In this document: positions 11,558-33,661 of the stretch, one piece after another
Numbering within the stretch: the stretch's first letter is position 1
Layout of the letters: every line of letters starts with the position of its first letter
Assembly (NCBI GenBank): GCA_036496285.1
Contig: DASXLI010000055.1
Coordinates: 3,692-67,691 of the forward strand
Length of the DNA stretch: 64,000 nt
Source of the DNA: Candidatus Binatia bacterium
GTDB lineage: Bacteria > Desulfobacterota > Binatia > UTPRO1
Direction of reading: 5' to 3'
Translations under genes and position numbers: made by a program
Notes under the pieces: generated by a model
The model's input: only the letters and a program-made list of their open reading frames with translations
The model's database searches: none
Told to the model about the DNA's origin: nothing

Positions 11558-11561
11558 CGGC

Positions 11562-12800
<1,239 letters not shown>

Positions 12801-12833
12801 GGCCCGCCCCCCGGTCAGCTCATACTGCCGGCG

Positions 12834-14771: not shown

Positions 14772-15144
14772 AGCTGCTCCTTCCCGGCACGTGGACCGGG
14801 AGCTCGAGGGAACGGCGCGTCGTGCAGCGACGCGCGTAGCCCGCGTGCGTTGCTGTCATGCAAAAGTATAGTGGTGTGCGGAAGCCCCGAGCAAGTACGC
14901 TTCGCCGCGCATGCCGCGGAGCGGCGTTGCGTGCGCGCCGCGAACGTGCTGCCGCACGGGAGTAAGGAAGAAACGAATCGGGAGCGCCGTGACGGCGCAT
15001 CGTCCGACCGCATCATCCATCGGCCACCTGACATGGCCTACCTCCCCTCGCCCGCAGAAACGGTAGCACCGTGATTCGCGAGGTGTCAACGTCGAAGCGT
15101 TCACGGCGCTTGCGATCCGTCCGCGTTTCGCACAGGACATCCTG

Positions 15145-20602: not shown

Positions 20603-20998
20603 TCAGAAGCTGATGCGGGCGGCTTCCTCGAGCAGGCGGGCGACCTCGGCCGGGTCGTACTCGTACGCGCGGTGGACGCCGATCCCGAGCGTGCCCCGCA
20701 CGGCGCCGGCCGCGTCGCGGATCGGCACCACGATCGCGCCGTTCACGCCCGTCTGCCGCGCTCCCGGACGGACATCGCCGGTGGTGTCGACCTGGATGTT
20801 GCAGCTCGAGACGGGCTCGTTGCGCTCGGCCGCGAGGCCCGCCATGCCTTTGCCGACCGGGACCCGGCGCACGATCTCGACGACGGGCGGCGGCAGGCCG
20901 ATCTCGGCCTCGAGGAGGAGCAGATCGCCCTCGCGCCGGTGGATGGTGCCGGTATCCGCGGGGAACCGTCCCATGATGGCCGCGAGCACGTCACGCAT
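20603..20998 (-). CDS. GAF domain protein
   Basis: About 131 aa with GAF-like fold motifs (VPVGKGMAGLAAERNEPV...NGAIVVPI). Divergent from the putative eboA. Confidence 0.55.
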   Translation of the reverse strand: MRDVLAAIMGRFPADTGTIHRREGDLLLLEAEIGLPPPVVEIVRRVPVGKGMAGLAAERNEPVSSCNIQVDTTGDVRPGARQTGVNGAIVVPIRDAAGAVRGTLGIGVHRAYEYDPAEVARLLEEAARISF

Positions 20999-21027: not shown

Positions 21028-21693
21028 GTGGCAGGGGAGGTGGTCATGCTGGAGGTGTTGCGGGGGCTGCTGCGGGCGCGGACGGCGGTGCCGTTGCCCG
21101 GCGACGACCGGCCTGATGCCTCGGCCCCCGACGCGGGCGCGCTCCTGGCGGCGCTGGCGGGCGCCGGGCGGCGTGTCGGCAAGGCCACGCTCGCGCTCGA
21201 CGAGTCCGAGACGCGGCGCCTGCAAGGCGCCGGCGCGCACTGGCCGATCGCGACGCGTCTCGACGAGCTCTGGCGGATCGCGGTGCTGGTCGCGGCCGCG
21301 GCGCGACTTGACGGCGAGCGCCTCGTCGCCGACGCGTATCGCGGCGGCGACAGCGACGAGCGCTGCGCCGTGCTGCGCGCGCTGCCGCTCCTGCCCGCGC
21401 CCGAGCGCTTCACCGCGCTCGCGGCCGACGCGTGCCGGAGCCATGTGCGCCCGATCTTCGAGGCGCTGGCGTGCGAAAACCCATTTCCCGCGCGCCACCT
21501 CTCCACGCTACACTTCAATCAGATGATCCTGAAGGCGCTCTTCCTCGACGTGCCGCTCATGCGCGTGCTCGGCCTCGACGCCCGGCGGAGCGACGAGCTG
21601 GGGCGCATGGCGCGCGACTACGCCGCCGAGCGCCGCGCCGCCGGCCGTCCGGTGTCGGCGGACCTGGCCGCGCTCGCGGGGGAGGGCGCGTGA
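21028..21693 (+). CDS. eboA: putative EboA (first gene of the ebo cluster; no known domain)
   Basis: About 220-aa Ala/Leu-rich protein directly upstream of, and overlapping (GTGA), the TatD-family eboB. Assignment is by position in the ebo gene set. Confidence 0.5.
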   Translation: MAGEVVMLEVLRGLLRARTAVPLPGDDRPDASAPDAGALLAALAGAGRRVGKATLALDESETRRLQGAGAHWPIATRLDELWRIAVLVAAAARLDGERLVADAYRGGDSDERCAVLRALPLLPAPERFTALAADACRSHVRPIFEALACENPFPARHLSTLHFNQMILKALFLDVPLMRVLGLDARRSDELGRMARDYAAERRAAGRPVSADLAALAGEGA

Positions 21694-22577
21694 GGCTCAT
21701 CGACCCGCACATCCACATGACGTCGCGCACGACCGACGACTACCAGGCGATGGCCGCCGCCGGCATCGTCGCGGTCGTCGAGCCGGCGTTCTGGATCGGC
21801 CAGCCGCGCACCCACGTCGGCACCTTCGAGGACGGCTTCGCATCGCTCGTCGGCTGGGAGCGCTTCCGGGCGTCGCAGTTCGGCATCCGCCACTTCTGCA
21901 CCCTGGCGCTGAACCCGAAGGAGGCCAACGACCCCTCGCTCGTCGAGGGGGTGCTCGCGCTCCTGCCGCGTTGGCTCGAGAAGGAGAGCGTGGTGGCGGT
22001 CGGCGAGGTCGGCTTCGACGACCAGACGCAAGAGGAGGAGCACGTCTTCGCGCGCCAGCTCGAGCTCGCGCGCGCCCACGATCTGCCGGTCCTGGTGCAC
22101 ACGCCCCATCGCGACAAGAAGCGCGGCACCGAGCGCAGCCTCGCCCTGGTACGCGAGGCGGGCTTCCCCGAGGAGCGCGTGCTGATCGACCACAACAACG
22201 AGGAGACGCTGCCCCTCGTCCTCGCGACCGGCTGCTGGGCGGCGCACTCGATCTATCCCGACACCAAGATGGACGAGGAGCGCATGGTGGCGCTCGTGCA
22301 GCGTTACGGCGCCGAGCGCATCATCATCAACAGCGCCGCCGACTGGGGCATCTCCGATCCGTTGAAGGTGCCGAAGACCGCCGCGTTGATGCGCGAGCGC
22401 GGCATCGACGAGGCGACGATCGAGACCGTCGTCTGGCGCAATCCGCTGGCGTTCTTCGCGCAGTCGGGCCGGCTCGACGCGGCCGCGCTCGAGGCCGAGC
22501 CCGCGATCGACCAGCGGGAGCTCTACGAGGGGAACTCGGTGCTGCGCGCCGGCCGCACGCCGCTGGTGCGGCGGTGA
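21690..22577 (+). CDS. eboB: TatD-family metal-dependent hydrolase (EboB)
   Basis: IDPHIHM metal-binding start, plus TatD-like His/Asp motifs (VHTPHRDK, LIDHNNEE). Confidence 0.8.
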   Translation: MRLIDPHIHMTSRTTDDYQAMAAAGIVAVVEPAFWIGQPRTHVGTFEDGFASLVGWERFRASQFGIRHFCTLALNPKEANDPSLVEGVLALLPRWLEKESVVAVGEVGFDDQTQEEEHVFARQLELARAHDLPVLVHTPHRDKKRGTERSLALVREAGFPEERVLIDHNNEETLPLVLATGCWAAHSIYPDTKMDEERMVALVQRYGAERIIINSAADWGISDPLKVPKTAALMRERGIDEATIETVVWRNPLAFFAQSGRLDAAALEAEPAIDQRELYEGNSVLRAGRTPLVRR

Positions 22578-22605: not shown

Positions 22606-23985
22606 GTGAGCATGCAGCGGACCGTGGTGGTGAACGTGGTCGGGCTCGACGCCGCCCTGCTCGGCGAGCACACGCCGCACCTCGCGGCGCTGGCGCGCGA
22701 GGGCGGGGTGCGTCCGCTCGAGACGGTCGTGCCGGCGGTGACCTGCACCGCGCAGGCGAGCTTCCTGACCGGCACCATGCCGCGCGAGCACGGCTGCGTC
22801 GCCAACGGCTGGTACTTCCGCGATCTTGCCGAGGTGTGGCTGTGGCGCCAGTCGAACCACCTGGTCGGCGGCGAGAAGCTGTGGGAGGCGGCGCGCCGGC
22901 AGGATCCGTCGTTCACCTGCGCCAACCTCTTCTGGTGGTACAACATGTACAGCTCGGTGGATCACGCGGTCACACCGCGGCCGATCTACCTCGCCGACGG
23001 ACTGAAGCTCCCCGACTTCTACACCGAGCCGTCCGAGTTGCACGGTGAGCTGCGCCAGCGCCTCGGCGACTTCCCGCTCTTCCACTTCTGGGGCCCGAAC
23101 GCCGACATCCGCTCGAGCCGCTGGATCGCCGACGCCGCCCGCTACGTCTACGACACGCGGAAGCCGACGCTCACGCTCGTCTACCTGCCACACCTCGACT
23201 ACAACCTGCAGCGCCTCGGCCCCGGCGACCCCGCGATTGCGGCCGACCTGCGCGCGATCGACGACGTCGCCGGCGAGCTGATCGCGCACGTGCGCGCCGA
23301 CGGCGCACGCGTCGTCGTGCTGTCGGAGTACGCGATCGGGCCGGTGCGCGGCGTCGTCCACGTGAATCGCGCGCTGCGCGAGGCGGGTCTGGTGCGGGTG
23401 CGCGAGGAGCTCGGGCTCGAGAAGCTCGACGCGGGCGCGTCGGAGGCGTTCGCGGTCGCAGATCATCAAGTGGCGCACGTCTACGTGAAGCGGCGCGAGC
23501 GGATCGGTGAGGTGCGCGCGCTGCTCGCGCGGCTCCCCGGCGTCGCGCAGGTGCTCGACGACGAGGGCAAGCGCGCGCTCGGCCTCGATCACGAGCGCTC
23601 CGGCGAGCTCGTCGCGCTCGCCGCCGACGACCATTGGTTCGCCTACTACTACTGGCTCGACGACGCGCGCGCTCCCGAATGGGCGCGCACCGTCGACATC
23701 CATCGCAAGCCCGGCTACGACCCGGCCGAGCTCTTCGTCGATCCCACGCTGACCCTCCCCGCGGCGCAGGTCGGCTGGCGCCTCGCGAAGAAGATGCTCG
23801 GCTTCCGCATGCTGATGGACGTGATCGGCCTCGATCCGTCGCTGGTACGGGGATCGCACGGCGCCCGTACGACCGGCCCGGTGCTGCTCTCGAGCGAGCC
23901 GACCTTGCTGCCCGGCGAGGGCGCCGTGCACGCCACGCAGGTGAAGGGACTGATCCTGCGCCACCTCGGGCTCGCGGCCTCGTGA
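22606..23985 (+). CDS. eboF: alkaline-phosphatase-superfamily nucleotide pyrophosphatase/phosphodiesterase (EboF)
   Basis: AlkP-core motifs (VVNVVGLD, TCTAQASFLTG with the Thr nucleophile, LVYLPHLD). Confidence 0.8.
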   Translation: MSMQRTVVVNVVGLDAALLGEHTPHLAALAREGGVRPLETVVPAVTCTAQASFLTGTMPREHGCVANGWYFRDLAEVWLWRQSNHLVGGEKLWEAARRQDPSFTCANLFWWYNMYSSVDHAVTPRPIYLADGLKLPDFYTEPSELHGELRQRLGDFPLFHFWGPNADIRSSRWIADAARYVYDTRKPTLTLVYLPHLDYNLQRLGPGDPAIAADLRAIDDVAGELIAHVRADGARVVVLSEYAIGPVRGVVHVNRALREAGLVRVREELGLEKLDAGASEAFAVADHQVAHVYVKRRERIGEVRALLARLPGVAQVLDDEGKRALGLDHERSGELVALAADDHWFAYYYWLDDARAPEWARTVDIHRKPGYDPAELFVDPTLTLPAAQVGWRLAKKMLGFRMLMDVIGLDPSLVRGSHGARTTGPVLLSSEPTLLPGEGAVHATQVKGLILRHLGLAAS

Positions 23986-25250
23986 GCCCGTCCCGGCTGC
24001 GGCAGCGGCCTCTCGTGCCGGTCGTGCTGTTTCTAATGATCGGCGCCGTGATCGCGCTGCGCACCGCGCGGAACCTGAACGTGCCCGGACACCCCGAGCT
24101 TCCGGGCTACGGACTGCACGACTTCCGCGACGTGCTCTACTACCCCGCCGTCGCCGTGCTCGACGGGCGGAATCCCTACGACCCGGCCGTCTTCCGCAGC
24201 GCCTATCCGGTGGCGCGGCCGCTCGCGCCGTACGCGCCGACGATGCTGATGCTGCACGTGCCGTTCGCGCTCCTGCCGTTCCCGCTCGCCGAGTGGACGC
24301 ACTTCGCGATGAACCTGACGCTGATGCTCGCGCTCGCGTACCTCGCGCTCGACGCCTGCGGATTGCCGGTCGCGGCGGCCGGCGTGTTCGGTCTCGGCGC
24401 GGTGATCCTGCTCAGCCGGCCGGCGCACATGACGCTCTACATCGGGCAGTCCTCGGCGTATCTGGTCGCCGCGACGTATTGCGCCTTGCTCTTCGCCGAG
24501 CGCCGTCCGGCGCTCGCCGGGGTCGCGCTCGCGATCGCGTGCGCCAAGCCGACGTTCGGCATCCCGCTCTGCGCGGTGCTATTAGTGCGCGGCGACCGCG
24601 CCGCGCTCGTCTGGGGGCTCACGCTCGCTGCCGTGGCGGGCGCCGTCATGGTCGCGGTGCTCGCGCCGGCGGCGGGAGGCCTCGCGCCCCTCGTCGAGTC
24701 CATCCGCGACAGCTACGCGCGCCTCATGCAGGATCCGTCGGCCAACGCGGCGTCGAGCATCATCCGCGTCGATGCCGTCGCGCTCGTCGGCCGCCTGCTC
24801 GGTGGCACGGTCGGCCCGGCCGCCGAGAGCCTGGCGACGCTGGCGCTCCTCGCCACCGGCACGGCCGCCGTGTGGCGGATCAGCTGCGCGGGCGACGCCG
24901 ACGCGCGGCTGCGGTCCGCCTGCGTTGCCTGCGTCACGATCCTCGCCTGCATGTACCACCAGTCGTACGACGGGCTCCTGCTGACGCTGCCGATGCTCGC
25001 GCTCGCGAGCGGCCGGCTCGGGGACGCCCCGGTGACGCGGCTGGTGGCATTCGTCGCCATGTCGGTTCCCGCCCTCAACTACGTGGCGACGGACACGGTC
25101 GTCGACGCGCTCGGCGTGCAAGGCACGGCACGCGCCGTCATCGGCTCGGTGAACGGTGCGGCGCTGCTCGTTGCGTTCGTGGCGGTCACGATGCTCGCCG
25201 TCAGCCGGCGCGGCGTCGCCCGCCCGCTCGTCGCCGACGTGGCCGGGTGA
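23982..25250 (+). CDS. GT87/DUF2029-like polytopic membrane protein (putative polyprenyl-phosphate-dependent glycosyltransferase), paralog A
   Basis: GTG start overlapping the eboF stop (GTGA). About 11 predicted TM helices. Conserved loop GxxDFRDxxYYPA and NPY motifs, and HQSYD near the C-terminus. Confidence 0.6.
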   Translation: MSPSRLRQRPLVPVVLFLMIGAVIALRTARNLNVPGHPELPGYGLHDFRDVLYYPAVAVLDGRNPYDPAVFRSAYPVARPLAPYAPTMLMLHVPFALLPFPLAEWTHFAMNLTLMLALAYLALDACGLPVAAAGVFGLGAVILLSRPAHMTLYIGQSSAYLVAATYCALLFAERRPALAGVALAIACAKPTFGIPLCAVLLVRGDRAALVWGLTLAAVAGAVMVAVLAPAAGGLAPLVESIRDSYARLMQDPSANAASSIIRVDAVALVGRLLGGTVGPAAESLATLALLATGTAAVWRISCAGDADARLRSACVACVTILACMYHQSYDGLLLTLPMLALASGRLGDAPVTRLVAFVAMSVPALNYVATDTVVDALGVQGTARAVIGSVNGAALLVAFVAVTMLAVSRRGVARPLVADVAG

Positions 25251-26539
25251 GCGCGGCCGTGCGCGACGATCACGCCGCCGCGGCAGGCAGCCGCCGGACG
25301 GCGCTCCTGCTCGCGCTCATCGTGTTCGCGATCGCCTTCGGTGCGGTGTCGCTGCGCACCTACCGAAACGCGATCGTTCCGGGGCAGCCGGAGCTCGAGC
25401 GCTATGGTCTCCGCGACTTCCGCGACGCCGTGCATTACCCGGCGCGCGCGCTCCTCGACGGCGTCAACCCGTATCGTCCGTCGACGTACCGCGCGCGCTA
25501 CCCGGTTGGCTCCAAGTTTCCGCTGTACACGCCGCTCACCCTGTTGGTGCACCTGCCGTTCGGGATGGGGTCGGTGCTCGCCGCCGGCACGGTGCACTAC
25601 CTCCTGAACGTGCTCTGCATGGTGCTGCTCGCGTACCTCAGCCTGCGCGTGTGCGGTGCGCGCCACGACGCGGCGGCGGTGCTCGGTCTCGGGGCGTTCA
25701 TCCTCGTGTGCCGGCCGGGCTACACCAACGTCTACACCGGCGAGTGCACCGCATACGTCACGCTCGGGGCGTATCTGGTCCTGGCGTTCGCCGAGGATCG
25801 GCCGGTCGTCGGCGCGCTCGGGGCGGCGCTCGCCTGGGTGAAGCCGACGTTCGGTGCGCCGCTCACCATCCTGCTCCTCGCGCGGCGCGATTGGCGGAAC
25901 GCGGCGCTGCGCGGCATCCTGCTGGGCGCGATCGTCTCGCTTCCGGTGCTGCTCGTGCTGCTGCGGGCGGAAGGCGGGGTCGGACCGTTGCTCGGCTCCG
26001 TGGTCGAGAACTATACGACCAGGAACACCGGGGAGACCTACTCGGGCGCGAGCGTGCTGGCGCTCGACGCGGGCGCGTTCGTCGCGCGCCTGCTCGGCCG
26101 CACGCCGGGAGCGGCGCTCGGCGGTGTCGAGCTCGCGGTCACGCTGCTGATCCTGGGCTTCGGCGTCGGCGCGGTCCTGTGCGCCGGCGAGGATCGCGCG
26201 AGCCGCTTCACGGCGATCACGATCGCCTGCCTGACCGTGCTGCTTGCCGTGCATCACCAGTCGTACGACGCGATCCTCGTGATCCTTCCGGCGACGGCGC
26301 TCGCGACCGGCCGCTGGTCGCCCCGCCTGCCGCTGCTCGGTGCCGCCACACCCTGGATGCTGTGCGCGCTGCTGCTGGTACCGTTCGTGAACTACGCCGC
26401 CTCGTACGCGTTCGTCGACCGCTGGCATCTGACCGGTTGGTCGTGGCTCGCCGCGACCAACGCGAACGGCGGCGCGCTCCTCTGCGCCCTCGTCTTGACC
26501 GGCGCTCTCGCGTTCGGCGCCGGCGCGGAAACGCGTTAG
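25247..26539 (+). CDS. GT87/DUF2029-like polytopic membrane protein, paralog B (tandem duplicate of the preceding gene)
   Basis: GTG start overlapping the previous stop (GTGA). About 45% identity to paralog A across the full length (RNxxVPGxPEL...GLxDFRD...NPY...KPTFG...HHQSYD). Confidence 0.6.
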   Translation: MSAAVRDDHAAAAGSRRTALLLALIVFAIAFGAVSLRTYRNAIVPGQPELERYGLRDFRDAVHYPARALLDGVNPYRPSTYRARYPVGSKFPLYTPLTLLVHLPFGMGSVLAAGTVHYLLNVLCMVLLAYLSLRVCGARHDAAAVLGLGAFILVCRPGYTNVYTGECTAYVTLGAYLVLAFAEDRPVVGALGAALAWVKPTFGAPLTILLLARRDWRNAALRGILLGAIVSLPVLLVLLRAEGGVGPLLGSVVENYTTRNTGETYSGASVLALDAGAFVARLLGRTPGAALGGVELAVTLLILGFGVGAVLCAGEDRASRFTAITIACLTVLLAVHHQSYDAILVILPATALATGRWSPRLPLLGAATPWMLCALLLVPFVNYAASYAFVDRWHLTGWSWLAATNANGGALLCALVLTGALAFGAGAETR

Positions 26540-26594: not shown

Positions 26595-27617
26595 CTATGC
26601 GCCGAGCCGGGCCAGCGTGCGTTGGATCTCGTCGAAGTCGGCGGCAGAGATGGTGACGCGGTTTGTCGAGTGGAAGGGCGGGAGCGCGCCGCGGACGGCG
26701 GACTCGTCGACCTCGACCCCGAACACCTCGCGGCCGACGGCGCCGATCAGCGCCTCGGGCGCGTGGCAGAAGTCCTCGTACTCGACGACGCGGAAGCGCG
26801 ACGGCCCGAGCTCGCGCTGCTGCTCGCGCATGCGGCGCTCGTGATAGACGAGCTGCGCGCACACCGCCTCGATCGGGCTCGCCGCGTCCTGGCCGACGAC
26901 GCGGTGCCGCGGGTCGGGGACGCCGTACGGTCCCTGGCGCGAGCCCTGGATGACCTCACGCGCGTGCAGGATCGACTGCGCCGCGTACGCGGGCTCGCGG
27001 CGGATGTAGACGAAATGCGCGGTCGGCAGCGCCCCCGCGATCGTCGACGCGACCGTCGCGATCGCGTTGTTCTTGGTGAGGAGCGGCTTGCCGAGCGCCG
27101 TCTCGTACGCCGCGAAGAACCGCCGCATCTCCTCGGCGGTGTGCGGGTCGAGGGCGGCGGGCGGCGTGTAGCGGTCCTCGCCGAGCCAGCGATCCCACAG
27201 GTACAGGCCGTCATTCTGGTCGGCGAATCCCCGGGTGCGGCCGTAGAAGCTGTGGAACGCGGGCGGGCGCGGGCGCAGCACCGACGCGAACACGCGGTTG
27301 GCGACGATCGGTGCCCGCGGGAAGACGGCGGTCAGGTTGTTGAAGTAGCCGACCGGGAGTTGCGAGCGCAGCACCTGCGAGACGACGGTCGTGCCGCTGC
27401 GCGGCGCGCCGGTGACGATGACGATCGGCAGGTGCGGCGACGTCGCCTGCGCGTAGAGCTTGCGCTCGGAACGCGCGAGCACGCCGTCCAGGGGGGCGGC
27501 GAGCGCGGCGAGGCCCGTCGACAGGATGGCGAAGAGCGCGGCGGGGTCGCGGGACCGGATCAGCCTGGAGACCAGGCCGACGGGGTCCTGGAAGTTTCGT
27601 GGGATCAGATGCGCCAT
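26595..27617 (-). CDS. sulfotransferase family protein
   Basis: PAPS 5'-phosphosulfate-binding P-loop TGAPRSGTT. Downstream region with RREP...Y. Last gene of the eboD-E-C operon. Confidence 0.7.
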   Translation of the reverse strand: MAHLIPRNFQDPVGLVSRLIRSRDPAALFAILSTGLAALAAPLDGVLARSERKLYAQATSPHLPIVIVTGAPRSGTTVVSQVLRSQLPVGYFNNLTAVFPRAPIVANRVFASVLRPRPPAFHSFYGRTRGFADQNDGLYLWDRWLGEDRYTPPAALDPHTAEEMRRFFAAYETALGKPLLTKNNAIATVASTIAGALPTAHFVYIRREPAYAAQSILHAREVIQGSRQGPYGVPDPRHRVVGQDAASPIEAVCAQLVYHERRMREQQRELGPSRFRVVEYEDFCHAPEALIGAVGREVFGVEVDESAVRGALPPFHSTNRVTISAADFDEIQRTLARLGA

Positions 27618-27684
27618 TGCCGCACGCCTCATTTCTAGCGTGCGAGGTGGACCGAGTTCCAGCCGCGTAACGCGTCCCGCGACA

Positions 27685-28542
27685 TCACGTGCCGCGGACC
27701 CAGCGCTGCAGCGCGAGCGTCGCGGGCCAGCCGAGCGCGCAGGCGGCGGCCGTCGTTGCGGCGCCTGCGTTGGCGATCGCCAGCGCGTCCACGAGGGCGA
27801 TGCCGGCGATCATGCCGGCGACCGCGCGCGGGAAGCGGTCCGGCGCGGTCCCCCGCAGCAGCCTGACCGCGGCGAGGACGGCGGCGAGGAGCAGCACCCA
27901 TACGGCCGCCGCGACGATGCCGCGGTCGAGGGCGCGCCAGCCGAGGAGAAGCGGCGCGGCGAGGAACGCGAGCGGCCACAGGCTCTCGACCCGCGCCAGC
28001 TGCTCCTGCTTGGCGGCATAGGTGAGGCCGATCAGATAGGCGAAGAGGATCGTCGCGCCGGCGACGACCGGCACCGCGAGGGAGCCCGCGACCGCCAGCG
28101 CGGCAGTCGCGTAGACGAGCCAGCGGCACGCGCCCATGAGGATCGGGCTGAGCGGATTCTGCTTGTGCCACAGGTCGTACAGCACGATCATGCCGGCGAG
28201 GGCGAGGGCCGCGACGACCGCCGCCGCGCCGGGCGCACGCGCGGCGATCAGTAGCATCCCCGCCGCGAGAAGCCCGAAGCCGACCGTGAACACCTCCGCG
28301 GCGCTGACGGCGCCGCTCGGGATCGGCCGCTCGGGGCGCTCGCGCGCGTCGATCGCACGGTCGAAGGCGTCGTTCAGGAACATGCCCCCGACGTAGAAGC
28401 AGGAGAGCGCCGCTGCCGTGTACGCGTAGACGAGCGCACCCGGACGGGCGCCCGCCAGGACGATGCCGGCGGCGACGTTCGTCCAGACCGTCGGCAGGTT
28501 CGACACCCGGCCGAGCTGGAGATAGAGGCGCCGCCGGCTCAC
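27685..28542 (-). CDS. eboC: UbiA-family aromatic/polyprenyl prenyltransferase (EboC)
   Basis: NDxxDxxxD motif (NDAFDRAIDARERPERP) and multiple TM helices. GTG start overlapping the eboE stop. The listed 666-aa ORF is a read-through frame; the true gene is its C-terminal 285 aa. Confidence 0.8.
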   Translation of the reverse strand: MSRRRLYLQLGRVSNLPTVWTNVAAGIVLAGARPGALVYAYTAAALSCFYVGGMFLNDAFDRAIDARERPERPIPSGAVSAAEVFTVGFGLLAAGMLLIAARAPGAAAVVAALALAGMIVLYDLWHKQNPLSPILMGACRWLVYATAALAVAGSLAVPVVAGATILFAYLIGLTYAAKQEQLARVESLWPLAFLAAPLLLGWRALDRGIVAAAVWVLLLAAVLAAVRLLRGTAPDRFPRAVAGMIAGIALVDALAIANAGAATTAAACALGWPATLALQRWVRGT

Positions 28543-29723
28543 GGCGCGGTCATCTGGTCGACGACCCAGGTGAGCTCGCGCGCAACCGCGTCGGCGATCG
28601 GCTCCGTGCGGAACTCCTCGGGCAGCACGTCCCAGGTGTAGGTCTCGACCTCGAGGTGCGCGGTCGGCGCGTCGCGGCGGACCAGCGCCAGGAGCTCGCG
28701 CACGTAACCCTGCGTCGAGCGGAAGCGGCCAAGCGCCTCGCGGAAGAGCGGCACGTGGAAGTGGATGCGCCATTCCCGGGTCGCGTCCGGGCGGCGCTCC
28801 GCCTCGGCGAGCGCGGCCGGCAGGTCGGTCCAGCGGAGCAAGCCTCCCGCCGAACGCTCGACGACCTGGTGCAGGTAGACGTCCTCGGCGAAGGCGCGCA
28901 GGGCGTCGCGGTCGACGGCGGAGCCGACCGACGCGGCGAGCCCGGCGCTCACCTGGATCTTCACGACGCGGATGCCGCGCGACCCGAGGGCGGCGAGCGC
29001 GGCGGCCGGGTCCTCGTACTCGACCGCCATGTGGCAGGCGTCGAGGCAGACGCCGACGTGGCGGCGAAGCGCGGCCGCGCTCGCGGACGGACCGAGCCCC
29101 GGTACCTGGCGGCGGAACAGATGATCCTCGAAGAACGCGACCGTCTCGGCGATCGTTTCGAGCTGGCAGCACGGCTCCGGCTCGAGCGCGAGGGCGATGG
29201 CGACGCCCTGGCGCTCGTGCAGGTCGTGCAGGGTGGCGACGTGCGCCGCGATGCGCGCGGCGATCGCGTCGGCGTCGCCGGCGCCGCCGAGCCGCGCCTT
29301 GAAGGCGCCCGGGACGGTCGAGATGCTGCCCTCGCAGCCGCCTGGCACGAGCGCTGCGAGGATGCGCGCGAGGCCGTCGGTATAGGCGAGCCGTTCGTCC
29401 TCGAGCCAGTCGGGCCGGTAGACGTCCTCTTTCACCGGCGTTCCGTGGAAGCGGCCGTAGGGGAAGCCGTTGATGGTGAAGACGTACAGCCCGCTTTCCG
29501 CGAGGTAGGTGCGAAAGGCCGCCAGCTCGTCCGGCGCTGCGAGCGCCGTCGCGGCCGCGCCGGAGAGCCGCAGCCCGACGCCGAACGGCCGGTCCGGCGC
29601 GACCCGCGCCTTCACCGCGCGCACGTGCGTCGCGACGTTCCGCCGCACCTCCGGCCAGGTCTCGCCGGCGTGGATGTTGGTGCAATAGGTGAGGTGCGGG
29701 GCGCCGGGCGCGGCGAGTCTCAT
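28539..29723 (-). CDS. eboE: xylose-isomerase-like TIM-barrel sugar-phosphate isomerase/epimerase (EboE)
   Basis: About 394 aa. TIM-barrel AP-endonuclease 2 / xylose-isomerase-like pattern. Start overlaps the eboD stop (ATGA). Confidence 0.8.
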   Translation of the reverse strand: MRLAAPGAPHLTYCTNIHAGETWPEVRRNVATHVRAVKARVAPDRPFGVGLRLSGAAATALAAPDELAAFRTYLAESGLYVFTINGFPYGRFHGTPVKEDVYRPDWLEDERLAYTDGLARILAALVPGGCEGSISTVPGAFKARLGGAGDADAIAARIAAHVATLHDLHERQGVAIALALEPEPCCQLETIAETVAFFEDHLFRRQVPGLGPSASAAALRRHVGVCLDACHMAVEYEDPAAALAALGSRGIRVVKIQVSAGLAASVGSAVDRDALRAFAEDVYLHQVVERSAGGLLRWTDLPAALAEAERRPDATREWRIHFHVPLFREALGRFRSTQGYVRELLALVRRDAPTAHLEVETYTWDVLPEEFRTEPIADAVARELTWVVDQMTAP

Positions 29724-30877
29724 CGCGCGTCCGGGCGGAGCCGCCCGATCGCGGCGTCGATCAGCGCGTCGTCCATCCGGTGCACCTCGACGCCCTCGCC
29801 GACCGCGCGCAGCAAGGTGATCGTGAGCTCGCCGCCGAGGTGCTCGCGGAACTCCGCGAGGCCGTCGAGCACCACCCGACGGCGGCCGCTCACGGTGTCG
29901 AGCGCCTCGTCCCAGAGCGGCAGCCCGAGGCGGGCGAGGAGCGTGCGGACGGCCGCACCCGTCGCGGTGTCACACACACCCGCGAGCTCCGCGTAGGTCG
30001 CGTCCATCGCGAGGCCGATCGCGACGGCCTCGCCGTGGCGCAGGCGGTGGCGCGTCATCGACTCGAGCTTGTGCGCCGCCCAGTGGCCGAAATCGAGCGG
30101 GCGGGCGCTGCCGAGCTCGAACGGATCGCCCGAGGTCGCGATGTGGCGCAGGTGCAGCTCGGCGCAGCGCCGGATCAAGGTCTCGAGCGACTCGCGGTCG
30201 CCGCGCGCGAGGGCGTCGGCCGACGACTCGAGCCAGCGGAAGAACGCGGCGTCGCGGATGAGCGCCACCTTCACGGCCTCGGCCATGCCCGCGACGACGT
30301 CGCGGGCTGCCAGCGTCTCGAGGAAGCGGCCATCGTTCACTACGGCGAAGGGCGGCGCGAACACGCCGAGAAAGTTCTTCTTGCCGAACAGGTTGACGCC
30401 GCACTTCACGCCGACGCCGGAGTCGGCCTGCGCCAGCACGCTCGTCGGCACGCGCAGCACGCGCAGGCCGCGGTGCAGGACGGCCGCCGCGTAACCGGCG
30501 AGGTCGAGGAGCGCGCCGCCGCCGACGATCGCGATCACCGCCTGACGATCCATGCCCAGCTCGTTCCAGCGTGTGTGCAGGCGGGCGGCGACCGCCGTGT
30601 CGTTCTTCGCCGCCTCGCCGCCGTCGAGCAGCAGCGGGTCGGCGACGAGCTCGATCGCGTCGCGGTGCTGTTCGGCGTAGGCGGCGATCGCCTCCAGCAG
30701 CCACGGCGACGCCGCGGCGACGTTGCGGTCGACGACCGCGAAGAGGCGGTGGCGGCGCTGCGGCTCGCGGGCGCTCACCGCCTCGCGGAGGCAGCCGTTC
30801 GCCGGCGCGAACGCGTCGCGCGTGAAGAAGACGGGGTACTCGAAGTCGACCGTGACCCGCTGCAGATGACGGTGCAT
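29720..30877 (-). CDS. eboD: 3-dehydroquinate-synthase-like sugar phosphate cyclase family protein (EboD)
   Basis: DHQS-fold motifs (IVGGGALLDLAGYAA, GVKCGVNLFGKKNFLG, HGEAVAIG). Start trimmed to MHRHLQRVTV. Confidence 0.8.
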   Translation of the reverse strand: MHRHLQRVTVDFEYPVFFTRDAFAPANGCLREAVSAREPQRRHRLFAVVDRNVAAASPWLLEAIAAYAEQHRDAIELVADPLLLDGGEAAKNDTAVAARLHTRWNELGMDRQAVIAIVGGGALLDLAGYAAAVLHRGLRVLRVPTSVLAQADSGVGVKCGVNLFGKKNFLGVFAPPFAVVNDGRFLETLAARDVVAGMAEAVKVALIRDAAFFRWLESSADALARGDRESLETLIRRCAELHLRHIATSGDPFELGSARPLDFGHWAAHKLESMTRHRLRHGEAVAIGLAMDATYAELAGVCDTATGAAVRTLLARLGLPLWDEALDTVSGRRRVVLDGLAEFREHLGGELTITLLRAVGEGVEVHRMDDALIDAAIGRLRPDAR

Positions 30878-31023
30878 GGGGGGCTGGGCGTCACCGGCGG
30901 CGCGGTCCGGCCTCGCGTGTGCGCTCAGGCTCGGCTCCGTTCCGGTCTGGGAAGAATAGCGTCGTGCGGGGTCTTCTGCATCAGGGGATCTCGGGGCGCC
31001 TGTCACCCCGCATGCGACGTGGC

Positions 31024-33648
31024 TCAGCGGCGCCAGGCCTCGCCGCCCTCGGCCCACACGCGGTCATGCAATGCGTCCGCGGTCGCCGGGTCGCGCAGCA
31101 GGGCGGCGCGCTCCGACGGGGCGAGCCCGTCGGGACCGTCGGCGACGGCGCGGGCGATGAGCGCCTCGCGGCGGGCGCGAATGGCGGCACGTACCCTCCG
31201 CGGCGCGCCGAGCAGCGCCCGATGCAGCGCCTGCAGGGCCGGATCGACGGCGGCCCATACGAATCCCGCGCGCGGCGCCGGCCGGTCGGCCAGCTCCTCG
31301 ACGTCGCGCAGCTCGCGCGGCGGATCGATCTCCTCCGGAATGAGGAAGAGCCCGCGGGTGCGGGCGCGGTCGCCGAGCGGCACCCGGCTCGCGAAGACCG
31401 AGAGGGGGATCGACAGGATGAGCGCGCCGATGATCGGCATGACCCACCAGAAGTAGTTCGGGTTCAGCCAGAAGAGGCAACCGCCCCAGACGCAGGCGAC
31501 GACCGTGTCGACCCCATGATGCCGGATCGCCTCGGCCCAGCTCGTCTCGGTGTCGTCACGGCCTTGCGACGACCACGTCACCGTGCGGCCCAGCAGGTTG
31601 GTCAGCACGAAACGGCTGTGGAAGACCATGCGGATCGGCGCGAGCAGGCTCGAGACGAGGATCTCGAGCAGCACGCTGAGCGACAGGCGTCCGAGTCCCC
31701 CGTACTTCTTCGCCTCGCGGCGCTTGAAGACGATCAGCGCGACGCTCAGGAACTTCGGCAGGAAGAGGATGATGCCGGTGACCGCGAGGAGCGCGCGCGC
31801 CCAGTTCGGCCGCCAGATCGGCCACGCCGGAAAGAGGCTCGGGCCCGACGGGAAGTAGTTCGGCTCGCGCAGTACGTCGATGATCGCCTGGCTCGTGCTG
31901 AGCGTGAGGAACATGAACCAGAGGAGCGCCGAGACGTACGACAGCACGCCGTTCAGAAAGAGCGCGCGGTGGGCGCCGAAGAGTCCCTCGGTGAAGAGCA
32001 GCCGGAGATGCTGGAGATTGCCCTGGCACCAGCGGCGATCGCGCTTCATCTCCTCGAGCAGGGTCGACGGCACCTCCTCGTAGCTGCCGCTCAGGTCGTA
32101 GGCGAGCCACAGCGTCCAGCCGGCGCGGCCCATGAGCGCCGCCTCGACGAAGTCGTGGCTCAGGATCTCGCCGCCGAGCGGCGGCTTGCCCGGCAGCCGG
32201 GGCAGCGCGCAATGGGCCATGAACGGCGCGACCCGGATGATCGCGTTGTGGCCCCAGTACTGGCCGTCGCCGAGCTGCCAGAAGTGCAGGCCGGCGGCGA
32301 ACATCGGTCCGTAGACCCGGCTGCCGAACTGCTGCACGCGCGCGAAGAGCGAGCGGCGGCTCACTGCCGCCGGCGCCGTCTGGATCATGCCGGCGTCGGG
32401 CCGATGCTCCATGAGCTGCACGAGCCGCACCAGGGTGTCGCCCGTCATGACGCTGTCGGCGTCCAGCATGATCATGTAGCGGTAGTCGCGGCCCCAGCGG
32501 CGGCAGAAGTCGGCGACGTTGCCGCTCTTGCGCCGCAGGCGCACGCGGCGCCGGCGGTAGAAGATGTGATCGAAGCCGCCGACCTCGCGGCACCACGCGA
32601 GCCACGCCGCCTCCTCGCGTACCGCGTGGTCGATGTCGGCCGTGTCGCTCAGCACGAAGAAATGGAAGTGGCGAAGCGCATCGATCCGCGCGAGCGACGC
32701 GTGGATCGCCCGCAGGCCGGCGAAGACGCGGTCGACCGGCTCGGCGCAGATCGGCATGACGATCGCGGTGCGCGTCGCGGCGTCGATCGGCGGCAGGCCG
32801 TCCGCGGGAAGGTTGGTGATCGCGAAGCGCTCGCGCCCGCGCATGAGGGTCACGAACCCGAAGAGCGCCGTCCAGAAGCCGATCGAGATCCAGCTGAAGA
32901 GCGCGCCGAAGAAGACGACGATCGCGACCTCGAGCCATGTGCCGCCCTGGCGCGGCAGCACGTTCACCATGAAGCCGCTCGCGACGATGCTCGGCAGGAA
33001 GACGAGGAAGCCGAGGAGCGCGCGCCGGCGCGCGGCGACGCGGGTCCAGGAGAGCGCGCGGCGCCGGCGGCGTAGCTCGGCGTGGCCGGTCGTGCCTGGG
33101 CCGTCGGGGCGCTTGCCGCGCAGGCGCAGCCAGAGGCGGCGGAGGATGCGCCGCTCGATCGGATCGGGCACCATGCGGCCGCGGTGGAGCGGCGGCGCCG
33201 AGCGGAAGCGCGGCGCGCAGCTCTCGGCGCGGAGCGGCTCCGCGCCGGTGCCCGGCGAGCGGGCAGGTGCGGCGGCGGGCCCGGTCGCACCGCCGGCTCC
33301 GAGCGCCGCGTCGAGACGCCAGGCCGTGAACGGCTCGAGCGTCGGGTCCCACGGATGCGCCGTCCGCGGATGCGCCTCCATCACGAGCGCACGGGTGTAC
33401 GCGAGTGTGTCGGCCATGGCGTCGCCGTCGGCAGTCGCGGCACGCGCCAGGGCCTCGCGAGCGATGCGATCGCACTCGTCCGGCGAGAGGCCGAGCGCCG
33501 CGAGATAGGCGAGCGCATGCGCGTACGCCTCGTCCCAGCGCTGGATCAGGCGCTCGGGCGTGATCGCGATGCGGCCCTCCGGCGCGGGCGGGGGCTCCGT
33601 CCGCTCGCGCGCCCGCAGGTCCGTCGCCTGTCGGATCGGCTCGCTCAT
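31024..33648 (-). CDS. opgH: glucans biosynthesis glucosyltransferase H (OpgH/MdoH, GT2)
   Basis: About 874 aa. GT2 motifs MLDADSVMTGD and RDRRWCQGNLQ. Multiple TM helices on either side of the catalytic domain. Confidence 0.9.
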   Translation of the reverse strand: MSEPIRQATDLRARERTEPPPAPEGRIAITPERLIQRWDEAYAHALAYLAALGLSPDECDRIAREALARAATADGDAMADTLAYTRALVMEAHPRTAHPWDPTLEPFTAWRLDAALGAGGATGPAAAPARSPGTGAEPLRAESCAPRFRSAPPLHRGRMVPDPIERRILRRLWLRLRGKRPDGPGTTGHAELRRRRRALSWTRVAARRRALLGFLVFLPSIVASGFMVNVLPRQGGTWLEVAIVVFFGALFSWISIGFWTALFGFVTLMRGRERFAITNLPADGLPPIDAATRTAIVMPICAEPVDRVFAGLRAIHASLARIDALRHFHFFVLSDTADIDHAVREEAAWLAWCREVGGFDHIFYRRRRVRLRRKSGNVADFCRRWGRDYRYMIMLDADSVMTGDTLVRLVQLMEHRPDAGMIQTAPAAVSRRSLFARVQQFGSRVYGPMFAAGLHFWQLGDGQYWGHNAIIRVAPFMAHCALPRLPGKPPLGGEILSHDFVEAALMGRAGWTLWLAYDLSGSYEEVPSTLLEEMKRDRRWCQGNLQHLRLLFTEGLFGAHRALFLNGVLSYVSALLWFMFLTLSTSQAIIDVLREPNYFPSGPSLFPAWPIWRPNWARALLAVTGIILFLPKFLSVALIVFKRREAKKYGGLGRLSLSVLLEILVSSLLAPIRMVFHSRFVLTNLLGRTVTWSSQGRDDTETSWAEAIRHHGVDTVVACVWGGCLFWLNPNYFWWVMPIIGALILSIPLSVFASRVPLGDRARTRGLFLIPEEIDPPRELRDVEELADRPAPRAGFVWAAVDPALQALHRALLGAPRRVRAAIRARREALIARAVADGPDGLAPSERAALLRDPATADALHDRVWAEGGEAWRR

Positions 33649-33661
33649 GCTCCCGGGCGCC

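What the first reader, a model, noticed from the sequence alone, without database searches (positions are those of the whole stretch)
23982..26539. Tandem paralogous GT87/DUF2029-like polytopic membrane proteins translationally coupled to eboF
Two roughly 425-aa multi-TM proteins follow eboF, both with GTGA overlaps. They are about 45% identical and share loop motifs (GLxDFRD, NPY, KPTFG, HHQSYD), so they look like a local duplication. GT87-type enzymes use polyprenyl-phosphate-linked donors on the periplasmic face. Pairing them with a UbiA prenyltransferase, a phosphodiesterase and a phosphatase-like hydrolase recalls the mycobacterial DPPR-synthase (UbiA) / phospholipid phosphatase / GT-C arabinosyltransferase logic. 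This suggests that the ebo enzymes build a polyprenyl-phospho-cyclitol or -sugar donor, and that the two membrane paralogs transfer the head group to an extracytoplasmic acceptor.
Basis: inference. Interest (0 to 1): 0.65.

Follow-up and report, generated by a model that had tools for sequence, protein, structure and literature searches.

The report
Paired PimE-like glycosyltransferases inserted in ebo cluster
Two adjacent genes really do encode a pair of membrane sugar-transferring enzymes of the PimE (GT87) type, but they are an old two-gene module that normally sits in surface-polysaccharide clusters and was dropped into the ebo cluster only in one narrow group of uncultured Binatia bacteria, so a working partnership with ebo is not supported.

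Summary
Two genes, 23982-25250 (422 aa) and 25247-26539 (430 aa), follow eboF with GTGA stop/start overlaps. They are paralogs (40% identity, E 1e-81) and share the named motifs. Both pass the Pfam GT87 threshold. Their AlphaFold2 models (pLDDT about 90) match mycobacterial PimE best and do not match transporters.

Two points fail. First, the duplication is not local. Copies a and b form separate orthologous clades across distant genomes. There they sit as PMT_2-GT87a-GT87b inside exopolysaccharide-type clusters with no ebo genes. Second, the ebo link is narrow. Only 1 of 78 genome loci with this GT87 subfamily has ebo genes within 10 kb. Only 1 of 80 loci with EboE relatives has a GT87. The pair, plus a sulfotransferase, fills the junction between the convergent halves eboDEC and eboABF. 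In most relatives that junction is under 400 bp, and elsewhere it holds unrelated genes.

The pair is found there only in five closely related Binatia contigs, whose whole neighbourhood is syntenic. Recent work assigns ebo to thallusin-type meroterpenoids and needs no glycosyltransferase.

Most likely these are polyprenyl-phosphate-sugar-dependent envelope glycosyltransferases, co-transcribed with eboABF by relocation.

The parts
23982..25250 (+). GT87-1 (copy a), 422 aa, a PimE-like GT-C glycosyltransferase. Its GTG start overlaps the eboF stop (GTGA).
   Evidence: PF09594 scores 70 bits. The AF2 model has pLDDT 89.7. The Foldseek top hit is PimE 9dm5, E 7.5e-7, TM 0.69/0.75. It falls in the copy-a clade. 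Start-site conservation is shown.
25247..26539 (+). GT87-2 (copy b), 430 aa, a paralogous PimE-like GT-C glycosyltransferase. Its GTG start overlaps the GT87-1 stop.
   Evidence: PF09594 scores 52 bits. It is 40% identical to GT87-1. The AF2 model has pLDDT 89.9. The Foldseek top hits are PimE 9dm7/9dm5, E about 3e-7. It falls in the copy-b clade.
22606..23985 (+). eboF, a type I phosphodiesterase / alkaline-phosphatase-family protein, 459 aa. It lies immediately upstream of GT87-1.
   Evidence: PF01663 scores 216 bits. It is 59-91% identical to the Phosphodiest gene of ebo clusters that lack GT87.
21687..22577 (+). eboB, a TatD-like hydrolase.
   Evidence: PF01026 match. It is 53-94% identical (most 56-76%; one locus, L116, 45%) to eboB in other ebo loci.
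21028..21693 (+). eboA.
   Evidence: NF035938 EboA_domain scores 147.5 bits against a cut-off of 50.
26595..27632 (-). Sulfotransferase (Sulfotransfer_3), convergent with GT87-2. It is the last gene of the minus-strand unit and belongs to the clade-specific insert.
   Evidence: PF13469 scores 60 bits. It is present in the window, L001, L167 and the P0002 contig, and absent from L087 and from all other ebo loci. One 51%-identical homolog lies 3.5 kb from a GT87 in the non-ebo locus L069.
27685..28536 (-). eboC, a UbiA-family prenyltransferase.
   Evidence: PF01040 match. NCBIfam gives SCO3242_trans 111 bits and EboC 106 bits, both below their cut-offs. It is 41-78% identical to eboC in most GT87-less ebo loci (one, L116, 36%).
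28539..29723 (-). eboE.
   Evidence: NF035939 TIM_EboE scores 458 bits against a cut-off of 250. The 100%-identical protein P0030 is named EboE of a Candidatus Binatia MAG.
29720..31057 (-). eboD, a DHQS-like sugar phosphate cyclase. The true start is probably Met61 of the ORF, near 30877.
   Evidence: PF01761 and PF24621 matches, and NF004852 at 543 bits. Relatives are called at 385 aa. The N-terminal sequence is shown.
31024..35170 (-). Context: mdoH (31024-33648) and mdoG (33662-35170), the periplasmic glucan synthesis genes. They lie directly upstream of eboD on the same strand.
   Evidence: MdoH NCBIfam models score up to 935 bits. PF04349 MdoG scores 628 bits. No terminator-like site lies between them and eboD. 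The arrangement is the same in L001 and the P0002 contig.
20603..20998 (-). Context: a small GAF-domain protein, divergent from eboA.
   Evidence: PF13185 match. It is conserved at this position in L001, L167 and the P0002 contig.

Best explanation
The two genes encode an ancient pair (copies a and b) of PimE-like GT-C glycosyltransferases of family GT87.

Inferred mechanism. Each protein inserts with its N-terminus in the cytoplasm. The first loop after TM1, carrying the DFRD and NPY motifs, faces the periplasm. A conserved aspartate of the DFRD motif (D47 or D50) acts as the base on an acceptor hydroxyl. The invariant Lys of KPTFG (K189) and the conserved His of HQSYD (H326) hold the phosphate of a polyprenyl-phosphate-sugar donor. 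The two enzymes add two different or successive sugars to a lipid-linked or envelope glycan on the outer face of the inner membrane.

Origin. The pair's ancestral home is PMT_2-GT87a-GT87b in exopolysaccharide-type clusters. In one Binatia sub-lineage the pair, with a sulfotransferase, was relocated into the junction between the convergent ebo half-operons. There it is now read through from eboABF. It is a lineage-specific passenger or add-on, not a general ebo component.

Shown here: family and fold, conservation of the motif residues in both copies, a/b orthology, and context statistics. Inferred: topology, residue roles, donor type, acceptor, and independence from ebo chemistry.
For: Family and fold. 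PF09594 is above threshold for both proteins. Both AF2 models are confident (pLDDT 89.7 and 89.9). PimE is the best PDB match for both, followed by other GT-C folds (PIGU, ALG3, ALG9, ArnT, GPI-MT-I); transporters reach TM 0.2 or less.

Conserved residues. In the narrower subfamily alignments A1/A2 (31 and 26 sequences) D47, K189, D264, H326, Y329 and D330 are invariant and D50, Y53 and Q156 are at least 90% conserved (Y84 invariant in A2, at least 90% in A1). Across the broad 42-sequence alignment A3, D47, K189 and D264 stay invariant and D50, Y53, Y84 and H326 are at least 90% conserved. These residues sit at nearly constant offsets from PimE's essential D58, Y62, Y92, Q163, K195 and H322 (PMC12041525).

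Ancient pair. Copies a and b each form a clade containing the window, L001, L002, L006 and L008.

Ancestral context. PMT_2-GT87-GT87 occurs with carbamoyltransferase/SxtJ/DUF5989, GT2, GT4, Wzy_C, Polysacc_synt and acyltransferases in L002-L008. The PMT_2 partner is conserved in 12 loci but absent from the window and L001. Natural fusions exist: GT87-GT87, PMT_2-GT87 and GT87-PMT_2.

Narrow ebo link. Ebo genes lie near only 1 of 78 GT87 genome loci. A GT87 lies near only 1 of 80 EboE loci, by tblastn and by HMM. Of 33 loci holding both eboC and eboF, 26 are convergent and 20 have less than 400 bp between them. Other inserts at that junction are unrelated genes: GAF, YceI, Pirin, CcmE and cytochrome c.

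Composition. GC3 is native-like.
Against: The pair is co-oriented with eboABF and overlaps eboF. No terminator-like site separates them. The arrangement has persisted in five related contigs, down to 69% GT87a identity. A functional tie to ebo in this lineage therefore cannot be excluded.

The PMT_2 partner and every polysaccharide gene are missing from the 64-kb window, so the pair's usual pathway context is not visible here.

Residue-level equivalence to the PimE catalytic residues was not verified. Sequence-profile searches of the PDB found nothing, and model coordinates could not be superposed. No biochemical data exist for any member of this subfamily.
Confidence: 0.6

Rival explanations
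1. Lineage-specific tailoring of the ebo product as the acceptor. The prenylated ebo product (a thallusin/saccharoquinoline-type meroterpenoid or a prenyl-cyclitol lipid) reaches the outer leaflet. The two GT87 enzymes glycosylate it from ordinary polyprenyl-phosphate-sugar donors, and the sulfotransferase adds sulfate. The result would be a PIM-like glycolipid or a glycosylated meroterpenoid.
For: The GT87 genes are co-transcribed with eboABF, and the sulfotransferase follows eboDEC on the other strand. The insert is kept in five related contigs. The PMT_2 partner and polysaccharide genes were left behind, as if the pair had gained a new acceptor. PimE's own acceptor is a lipid-anchored cyclitol glycoside (PMC12041525). 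EboD makes a cyclitol and EboC prenylates.
Against: The whole neighbourhood is syntenic in those relatives, so the retained adjacency carries little weight. L087 keeps only copy a and lacks the sulfotransferase. The same junction holds unrelated genes in other lineages. The tree shows no accelerated divergence of the ebo-linked clade. No GT-C enzyme acting on a meroterpenoid turned up in the few targeted searches made of the held paper library.
Confidence: 0.18
2. The ebo enzymes (UbiA prenyltransferase, phosphodiesterase, hydrolase) build a polyprenyl-phospho-cyclitol or -sugar donor, and the two GT87 paralogs transfer its head group to an extracytoplasmic acceptor. This would parallel the DPPR synthase / phosphatase / Emb-Aft pathway.
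For: The locus holds a UbiA enzyme, a phosphodiesterase and GT-C enzymes together. Klicki et al. proposed a lipid-carrier role for the ebo product (PMC6282210).
Against: Ebo clusters almost never carry a GT87, and this GT87 subfamily almost never sits near ebo. So ebo cannot be the general donor pathway for these enzymes, nor GT87 the general consumer of the ebo product.

The window's EboC is the same type as in GT87-less clusters, at 41-78% identity in most (one, L116, 36%). No decaprenyl-phosphate phosphoribosyltransferase model appears among its NCBIfam hits. EboC orthologs farnesylate hydroxyquinaldic acids with FPP, and eboB, C, E and F are required for thallusin, a diffusible small molecule (preprint 10.64898/2026.05.21.724671).
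Confidence: 0.06
3. The pair, and perhaps the sulfotransferase, decorates osmoregulated periplasmic glucans made by the adjacent MdoG/MdoH.
For: mdoG-mdoH lies directly upstream of eboDEC-sulfotransferase on the same strand with no terminator-like site. This is conserved in L001 and the P0002 contig. Periplasmic glucans would be reachable by a periplasm-facing GT-C enzyme.
Against: The GT87 genes are on the opposite strand, separated from mdoGH by four ebo-unit genes. No mdo genes lie near the pair in any other locus. The adjacency has the same synteny caveat as above. I know of no GT-C-dependent branching of these glucans (own knowledge, not searched).
Confidence: 0.05
4. The proteins are not active transferases. 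They would be transporters, flippases or decayed pseudo-enzymes.
For: No biochemical data exist for this subfamily. NCBIfam has no model for them.
Against: Both models match PimE, and transporter folds score TM 0.2 or less. The putative catalytic and phosphate-binding residues are invariant or nearly so in both copies, within a family of 5,707 clusters. GC3 and intact ORFs across relatives indicate purifying selection.
Confidence: 0.03

Closest known systems
PimE, the polyprenyl-phosphate-mannose-dependent alpha-1,2-mannosyltransferase of Mycobacterium (GT87; PDB 9dm5/9dm7; PMC12041525)
   Same: Same Pfam family, PF09594. It is the closest solved fold for both proteins, at TM 0.63-0.76. Size is similar, about 12 TM helices with juxtamembrane helices. 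Conserved Asp(s) sit at the start of the first periplasmic helix, and Lys and His lie near PimE positions K195 and H322.
   Different: Structural alignments show only 16-18% identity, and PDB sequence-profile searches detect nothing. The host is a Gram-negative-type Binatia bacterium, with no phosphatidylinositol mannoside pathway evident in the window. The genes occur as a conserved a/b pair, usually next to a PMT_2 GT-C enzyme. Donor sugar, acceptor and linkage are unknown.
ebo / EDB cluster (eboA-F; Yurchenko 2016 PMC5133447; Klicki 2018 PMC6282210; thallusin preprint 10.64898/2026.05.21.724671)
   Same: All six ebo genes are present, in the common convergent layout eboDEC -> <- eboFBA. Insertion of non-ebo genes into ebo operons has been described before, including a putative glycosyltransferase in cyanobacteria.
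   Different: The GT87 pair and the sulfotransferase are not part of the ebo set. They are absent from 79 of 80 sampled ebo loci. The 2026 survey of 3,403 clusters does not use the words GT87 or glycosyltransferase anywhere in its main text; the sulfotransferase was not among the terms searched there.
PMT_2-GT87a-GT87b module in exopolysaccharide-type clusters of Binatia and 'Deltaproteobacteria' MAGs (uncharacterised; seen in L002, L006, L008, L010, L011, L013)
   Same: Copies a and b are orthologous to the window's two genes at 51-58% identity. Gene order is the same, and in L002, L003 and L006 the two genes share the same 4-nt overlap (L008 overlaps by 31 nt; L007's second gene is a 212-aa fragment after a 51-nt gap).
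   Different: In the window the upstream PMT_2 gene is replaced by eboF. The downstream reverse PMT_2, the carbamoyltransferase/SxtJ/DUF5989 trio and the GT2/GT4/Wzy genes are all missing.
Mycobacterial DPPR synthase (UbiA, Rv3806c) / phosphatase / Emb-Aft GT-C arabinosyltransferase pathway
   Same: A UbiA-family enzyme, a phosphate-ester hydrolase and GT-C enzymes lie at one locus.
   Different: EboC orthologs prenylate aromatic acceptors with FPP. No similarity to DPPR synthase models was seen. The GT-C enzymes here are GT87, not the GT53/GT85/GT89 arabinosyltransferase families. The co-occurrence is confined to one clade.

Membership tests
GT87 (Pfam PF09594, formerly DUF2029; PimE-like GT-C) | Match to the family profile above the curated threshold | tested here: met
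   GT87-1 scores 70 bits and GT87-2 scores 52.2 bits against a cut-off of 25. Both cover nearly the whole 237-position model.
GT87 (Pfam PF09594, formerly DUF2029; PimE-like GT-C) | GT-C membrane fold, closest to PimE | tested here: met
   The AF2 models have pLDDT 89.7/89.9 and pTM 0.91/0.90. The Foldseek top hits are 9dm5/9dm7 at E 2e-7 to 3e-6 and TM 0.63-0.76. Next come PIGU, ALG3, ALG9, ArnT and GPI-MT-I.
GT87 (Pfam PF09594, formerly DUF2029; PimE-like GT-C) | Catalytic aspartate at the tip of the first juxtamembrane helix in periplasmic loop 1 (PimE D58, with Y62) | tested here: inconclusive
   D47 is invariant, and D50 and Y53 are at least 90% conserved. They lie at the start of helix 46-60, right after TM1. 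The D47/D50 spacing mirrors PimE D55/D58. Residue-by-residue superposition could not be done, and PDB profile searches found nothing.
GT87 (Pfam PF09594, formerly DUF2029; PimE-like GT-C) | Lys and His that bind the donor phosphate (PimE K195, H322) | tested here: inconclusive
   K189 (KPTFG) is invariant and H326 ([YH]HQSYD) is at least 90% conserved across 42 sequences. They lie within 4-6 residues of the PimE positions. The equivalence is inferred from position, not from an alignment.
GT87 (Pfam PF09594, formerly DUF2029; PimE-like GT-C) | Use of a polyprenyl-phosphate-mannose donor and formation of an alpha-1,2 linkage | not testable with these tools
   This needs membrane assays with labelled polyprenyl-P-sugars.
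ebo cluster component (accessory 'eboG/H') | Recurrent co-occurrence with eboA-F across taxa | tested here: not met
   Ebo genes lie within 10 kb at 1 of 78 GT87 genome loci; 50 of those loci are 18 kb or longer. A GT87 is present at 1 of 80 EboE loci, and at 1 of 33 loci holding both eboC and eboF. Positive cases are limited to five closely related Binatia contigs.
ebo cluster component (accessory 'eboG/H') | Same transcription unit as ebo genes | tested here: met
   The genes share the eboABF strand. The GTGA overlap with eboF is conserved in four relatives, and no terminator-like site intervenes. Overlaps are generic at this locus.
ebo cluster component (accessory 'eboG/H') | Required for, or acting on, the ebo product | not testable with these tools
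   In Stieleria, thallusin production needs eboB, C, E and F. The preprint's main text makes no mention of a glycosyltransferase.
PMT_2-GT87a-GT87b polysaccharide-cluster module | Orthology of the two genes to copies a and b | tested here: met
   The neighbour-joining tree separates an a clade from a b clade. Each holds the window, L001, L002, L006 and L008 members.
PMT_2-GT87a-GT87b polysaccharide-cluster module | Adjacent PMT_2-type GT-C partner and polysaccharide assembly genes | tested here: not met
   The window and L001 give no tblastn hit to either PMT_2 partner, the carbamoyltransferase or the GT2. Pfam scans of the main flanking ORFs on either side of the locus found no polysaccharide genes; several ORFs, mainly beyond 50.5 kb, were not scanned.
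UbiA-made polyprenyl-phosphate donor plus GT-C consumer (DPPR/Emb-Aft logic) | A UbiA enzyme of the polyprenyl-phosphate:sugar-phosphate transferase type | tested here: not met
   The best NCBIfam hits are SCO3242-family and EboC models. No DPPR synthase model appears at E <= 0.01. EboC orthologs use FPP on hydroxyquinolines.

The most novel reading that the evidence does not exclude
In this Binatia lineage the relocated GT87 pair and the sulfotransferase may have been recruited as tailoring enzymes for the ebo pathway. They would glycosylate, and sulfate, the membrane-embedded prenylated ebo product on the periplasmic face. The product would be either a PIM-like prenyl-cyclitol glycolipid or a glycosylated thallusin-type meroterpenoid. 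That would be the first GT-C enzyme acting on an ebo product and the first ebo-derived glycoconjugate.
Probability: 0.15. Interest if true: 0.7.

Novelty: new member of a known kind. Interest (0 to 1): 0.3.

Why it matters
The ebo cluster is widespread, and its chemistry is only now being worked out. Lineage-specific genes embedded in it are the obvious leads to derivatives or to how the product is handled at the membrane. This analysis shows that this particular lead is weak. The GT87 pair is a portable envelope-glycan module that landed at a variable junction, not a hidden part of the ebo pathway.

Two by-products are useful. One is a previously undescribed, broadly distributed DFRD/KPTFG/HQSYD subfamily of GT87 outside the Actinobacteria. 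It has 5,707 clusters at 50% identity, often paired or fused with PMT_2-type GT-C enzymes. This suggests periplasmic, polyprenyl-phosphate-sugar-fed glycan elaboration in Binatia, Planctomycetota, Acidobacteriota and Acidimicrobiia. The other is a corrected start site for GT87-1, which public gene calls truncate within TM1.

Tried and rejected
- Sequence-profile searches of the PDB with three alignments (A1, A2, A3; E up to 10) found no hit, not even PimE. I therefore could not align residues to PimE. The residue equivalences rest on the fold match and on positional offsets.
- NCBIfam has no model matching either GT87 protein.
I rebuilt it as A2.
- A Kyte-Doolittle window count gave only 7 segments for each protein, which is unreliable for these Ala-rich proteins. 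I used the AF2 helices instead.
- The promoter/terminator scan found no sigma-70-like sites and no informative terminator within the locus.
- A phmmer search of the PDB with the sulfotransferase found nothing.
- One NCBIfam call on eboC of relatives failed on wrong coordinates and was dropped.
- I considered that the window's Phosphodiest might be a GT-C partner rather than eboF, because L004 has a Phosphodiest next to PMT_2/GT87. I rejected this. The window protein is 59-91% identical to eboF of GT87-less ebo clusters and has no tblastn hit in L004.
- I considered recent foreign transfer of the pair and rejected it on native GC3.

Full report
OBSERVATION. The window has about 71% G+C. A codon-position check was therefore needed to sort real genes from shadow ORFs. 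The two genes are at 23982-25250 (422 aa) and 25247-26539 (430 aa) on the + strand. Their GC3 is 0.93 and 0.91, like every neighbouring gene. The long antisense ORFs show the shadow pattern, with GC3 of 0.74-0.75.

Both starts are GTG codons overlapping the preceding stop as GTGA. Public gene calls start the first protein at ATG 24036, giving 404 aa (P0001). Three things argue for GTG 23982 instead. The junction ctcGTGAgc is conserved in the window and three relatives (L167, L001, L087). The Arg-rich peptide it encodes (VSxxSxRxR...LV) is conserved too. And the later start would remove half of the first transmembrane helix, residues 11-30 in the model.

The two proteins are 40% identical over 412 residues, E 1e-81. 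They share GLxDFRD, NPY, KPTFG and [YH]HQSYD at matching positions.

LOCUS. On the + strand lie eboA (21028-21693), the TatD-like eboB (21687-22577), eboF (22606-23985), GT87-1 and GT87-2. Convergent on the - strand lie a Sulfotransfer_3 gene (26595-27632), the UbiA-type eboC (27685-28536), eboE (28539-29723) and the DHQS-like eboD (29720-31057). These are preceded on the same strand by mdoH and mdoG.

EboE is identical to a protein named as EboE of a Candidatus Binatia MAG. Of the ORFs scanned across the 64 kb (several, mainly beyond 50.5 kb, were not scanned), all were housekeeping or unrelated: DnaB, a two-component system, PrkA/YeaH/SpoVR, fatty-acid oxidation genes, a P450, thiolase and pyruvate:ferredoxin oxidoreductase. 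None is a polysaccharide gene, a PMT_2 or a GtrB-like GT2.

WHAT THE PROTEINS ARE. Both pass the Pfam GT87 threshold, at 70 and 52 bits against 25. AlphaFold2 models built on 26-sequence alignments are confident, with pLDDT 89.7 and 89.9 and pTM 0.91 and 0.90. Foldseek against the PDB puts mycobacterial PimE first for both, at E 2e-7 to 3e-6 and TM 0.63-0.76. Other GT-C folds follow: PIGU, ALG3, ALG9, ArnT, GPI mannosyltransferase I and ALG6. Transporter folds score TM 0.2 or less.

The PimE paper identifies D58 (at the tip of the first juxtamembrane helix) as the base, with Y62 supporting it. K195, H322 and W319 hold the donor phosphate, and Y92 and Q163 are essential (PMC12041525). In this subfamily D47, K189 and D264 are invariant across the broad 42-sequence alignment, where D50, Y53, Y84 and H326 are at least 90% conserved. 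In the narrower 26-31-sequence alignments H326, Y329 and D330 are also invariant and Q156 is at least 90% conserved. This holds in both copy-a and copy-b proteins. These residues lie at near-constant offsets from the PimE residues, and the DFRD aspartates start the first helix after TM1.

I treat these equivalences as probable but unverified. Three profile searches of PDB sequences found nothing, and I could not superpose coordinates. The Arg-rich N-terminus before TM1 fits an N-in topology, with the DFRD/NPY loop in the periplasm, as in PimE. That is an inference.

THE DUPLICATION IS OLD. A neighbour-joining tree of the pair and its relatives separates a copy-a clade from a copy-b clade. Each clade contains members from the window, L001, L002, L006 and L008. 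The pair is therefore a conserved two-gene module, not a local duplication.

WHERE THE MODULE NORMALLY LIVES. Word-indexed search found only 29 relatives of GT87-1. Relatives at 51-63% identity sit in clusters with no ebo gene. The recurring order is PMT_2 (about 500 aa), GT87a, GT87b, then a reverse PMT_2-like gene of 710-760 aa. Around them are carbamoyltransferase/SxtJ/DUF5989, GDSL lipase, Acyl_transf_3, GT2, GT4, Wzy_C, Polysacc_synt and Pel9A-like beta-helix genes. A more distant single-copy relative follows three PMT_2 genes next to nucleotide-sugar genes.

The upstream PMT_2 partner is detectable in 12 loci but not in the window or L001. A full HMMER scan of 1.84 billion representatives finds 5,707 clusters at E <= 1e-3 and 600 at E <= 1e-30. 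These include natural fusions: GT87-GT87, PMT_2-GT87, GT87-PMT_2 and GT87-GNAT. This subfamily evidently works in teams of periplasm-facing GT-C enzymes on glycans.

CO-OCCURRENCE WITH EBO, BOTH DIRECTIONS. Forward test: a scan of one genome per species (185,579 species) with the subfamily's DFRD motif gave 78 loci. They come from Binatia, 'Deltaproteobacteria' MAGs, Planctomycetota, Holophagae, Acidimicrobiia and Pseudonocardiaceae. Fifty of the loci are 18 kb or longer. tblastn with all window ebo proteins found ebo genes in only one, the 74%-identical MAG MFD05442.bin.2.52 (L009 = L001).

Reverse test: EboE has more than 7,400 relatives in the word-indexed search. I fetched 80 metagenome loci with 50-89% identical EboE (630 kb in total, median 5.9 kb). 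Only L087, the closest at 89%, has a GT87, by tblastn and by a subfamily HMM. Thirty-three of these loci carry both eboC and eboF. Twenty-six show the convergent layout eboDEC -> <- eboFBA, and in 20 the two genes are less than 400 bp apart. At 74% EboE identity (L088) the junction is empty.

Where the junction is occupied in other lineages, it holds unrelated genes: GAF/YceI/Pirin/NMT1, CcmE with a sigma-70-like protein, or a c-type cytochrome.

The full ebo + GT87a + GT87b + sulfotransferase layout is present in the window, the P0002 contig (85%), L167 (79%) and L001 (74%). L087 (69%) has only copy a and no sulfotransferase. In those relatives the flanking acyl-CoA synthetase, acyl-CoA dehydrogenase, methyltransferase, enoyl-CoA hydratase, GAF, mdoGH and P450 genes are also syntenic. 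Retained adjacency therefore adds little evidence of function.

LITERATURE. [quoted passage not shown] Klicki et al. proposed that ebo makes a lipid-carrier-like prenylated cyclitol for export of the scytonemin monomer (PMC6282210). [quoted passage not shown]

A May 2026 preprint ties ebo to the morphogen thallusin. EboC from three phyla farnesylates hydroxyquinaldic acids with FPP. Single deletions of eboB, C, E or F abolish thallusin. A survey of 3,403 clusters does not mention a glycosyltransferase in its main text (10.64898/2026.05.21.724671). The window's EboC is 41-78% identical to EboC of most GT87-less clusters (one, L116, 36%). It shows no similarity to decaprenyl-phosphate phosphoribosyltransferase models.

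The search for GT87/DUF2029 turned up no paper on GT87 outside the Actinobacteria among the listed hits, and the ebo papers examined make no mention of it.

INTERPRETATION. The best-supported reading is that the two genes encode active PimE-like glycosyltransferases. They would take sugars from polyprenyl-phosphate donors and add them, probably in two distinct steps, to a lipid-linked or envelope glycan on the periplasmic face. The pair was relocated, with native codon usage, from a PMT_2/polysaccharide context into the variable junction of the convergent ebo cluster in one Binatia sub-lineage. There it is read through from eboABF.

A genuine recruitment to modify the ebo product cannot be excluded, and it is the most interesting residual possibility (about 0.15-0.2). 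The pair lost its usual partners, it sits in the ebo transcription unit, and PimE's own acceptor is a lipid-anchored cyclitol glycoside. A link to the adjacent periplasmic-glucan genes is speculative (about 0.05).

VERDICT. The proposed ebo-GT87 pathway logic is not supported by comparative genomics or by current ebo biochemistry. The finding is a new member, and a newly seen context, of a known enzyme family. Interest is modest.

Noticed in passing
window 31024-35170 (-), with L001 and the P0002 contig: mdoG and mdoH (periplasmic glucan synthesis) lie directly upstream of eboD on the same strand, with no terminator-like site between them. In this clade the minus-strand unit may therefore read mdoG-mdoH-eboD-eboE-eboC-sulfotransferase. 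mdo genes were not seen near ebo in any of the other sampled ebo loci.
   Followed up: partly
window 20603-20998 (-); L153 2011-2565: A small GAF-domain protein is divergent from eboA and is conserved at that position in relatives. A GAF gene is also among the genes inserted between eboC and eboF in an unrelated ebo locus. It may be an ebo-linked sensor or regulator.
   Followed up: partly
proteins P0150, P0228, P0219, P0162 (representative library): Natural fusions occur in this GT87 subfamily: GT87-GT87 (856 aa, halves 43% identical), PMT_2-GT87 (914 aa), GT87-PMT_2 (936 aa) and GT87-GNAT acetyltransferase (799 aa). They suggest physical cooperation between these GT-C enzymes. I did not check whether any of them is a gene-calling artefact.
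   Followed up: partly
window 23982 vs 24036; L167 7360; P0002 contig: Public gene calls start GT87-1 and its orthologs 29-54 nt too far downstream, which truncates TM1. The conserved GTGA junction and N-terminal peptide indicate that the GTG overlapping the eboF stop is the true start.
   Followed up: yes
window 29720-31057 (-): The eboD ORF as listed overlaps mdoH by 34 nt. The first 60 residues look non-coding, and relatives are called at 385 aa. The real start is probably the Met near 30877, leaving about 146 nt between mdoH and eboD.
   Followed up: partly
L153 2330-3884: In another ebo lineage the eboC/eboF junction carries a YceI-family gene (a family annotated as polyisoprenoid-binding) and a Pirin gene. 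This is a different accessory set that might relate to handling a prenylated product.
   Followed up: no
L069 9941-11203 and 14735-15778: A 51%-identical homolog of the window's sulfotransferase lies about 3.5 kb downstream of a GT87 gene in a Binatia locus without ebo genes. This is the only other sulfotransferase-GT87 proximity found.
   Followed up: partly
window 10127-14855 (-): A complete PrkA / DUF444 (YeaH) / SpoVR operon is present. This is the conserved stress-response trio, and it is unrelated to the finding.
   Followed up: no
window 39286-44356: A 991-aa BNR/Sortilin-Vps10 repeat protein on the - strand lies next to a 656-aa ORF on the + strand that has no Pfam match.
   Followed up: no
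L035 and L051 (same MAG as L001): The MAG that shares the ebo-GT87 layout carries at least two further GT87 paralogs of this subfamily elsewhere in its genome, at 39-40% identity. I did not annotate their contexts.
   Followed up: no
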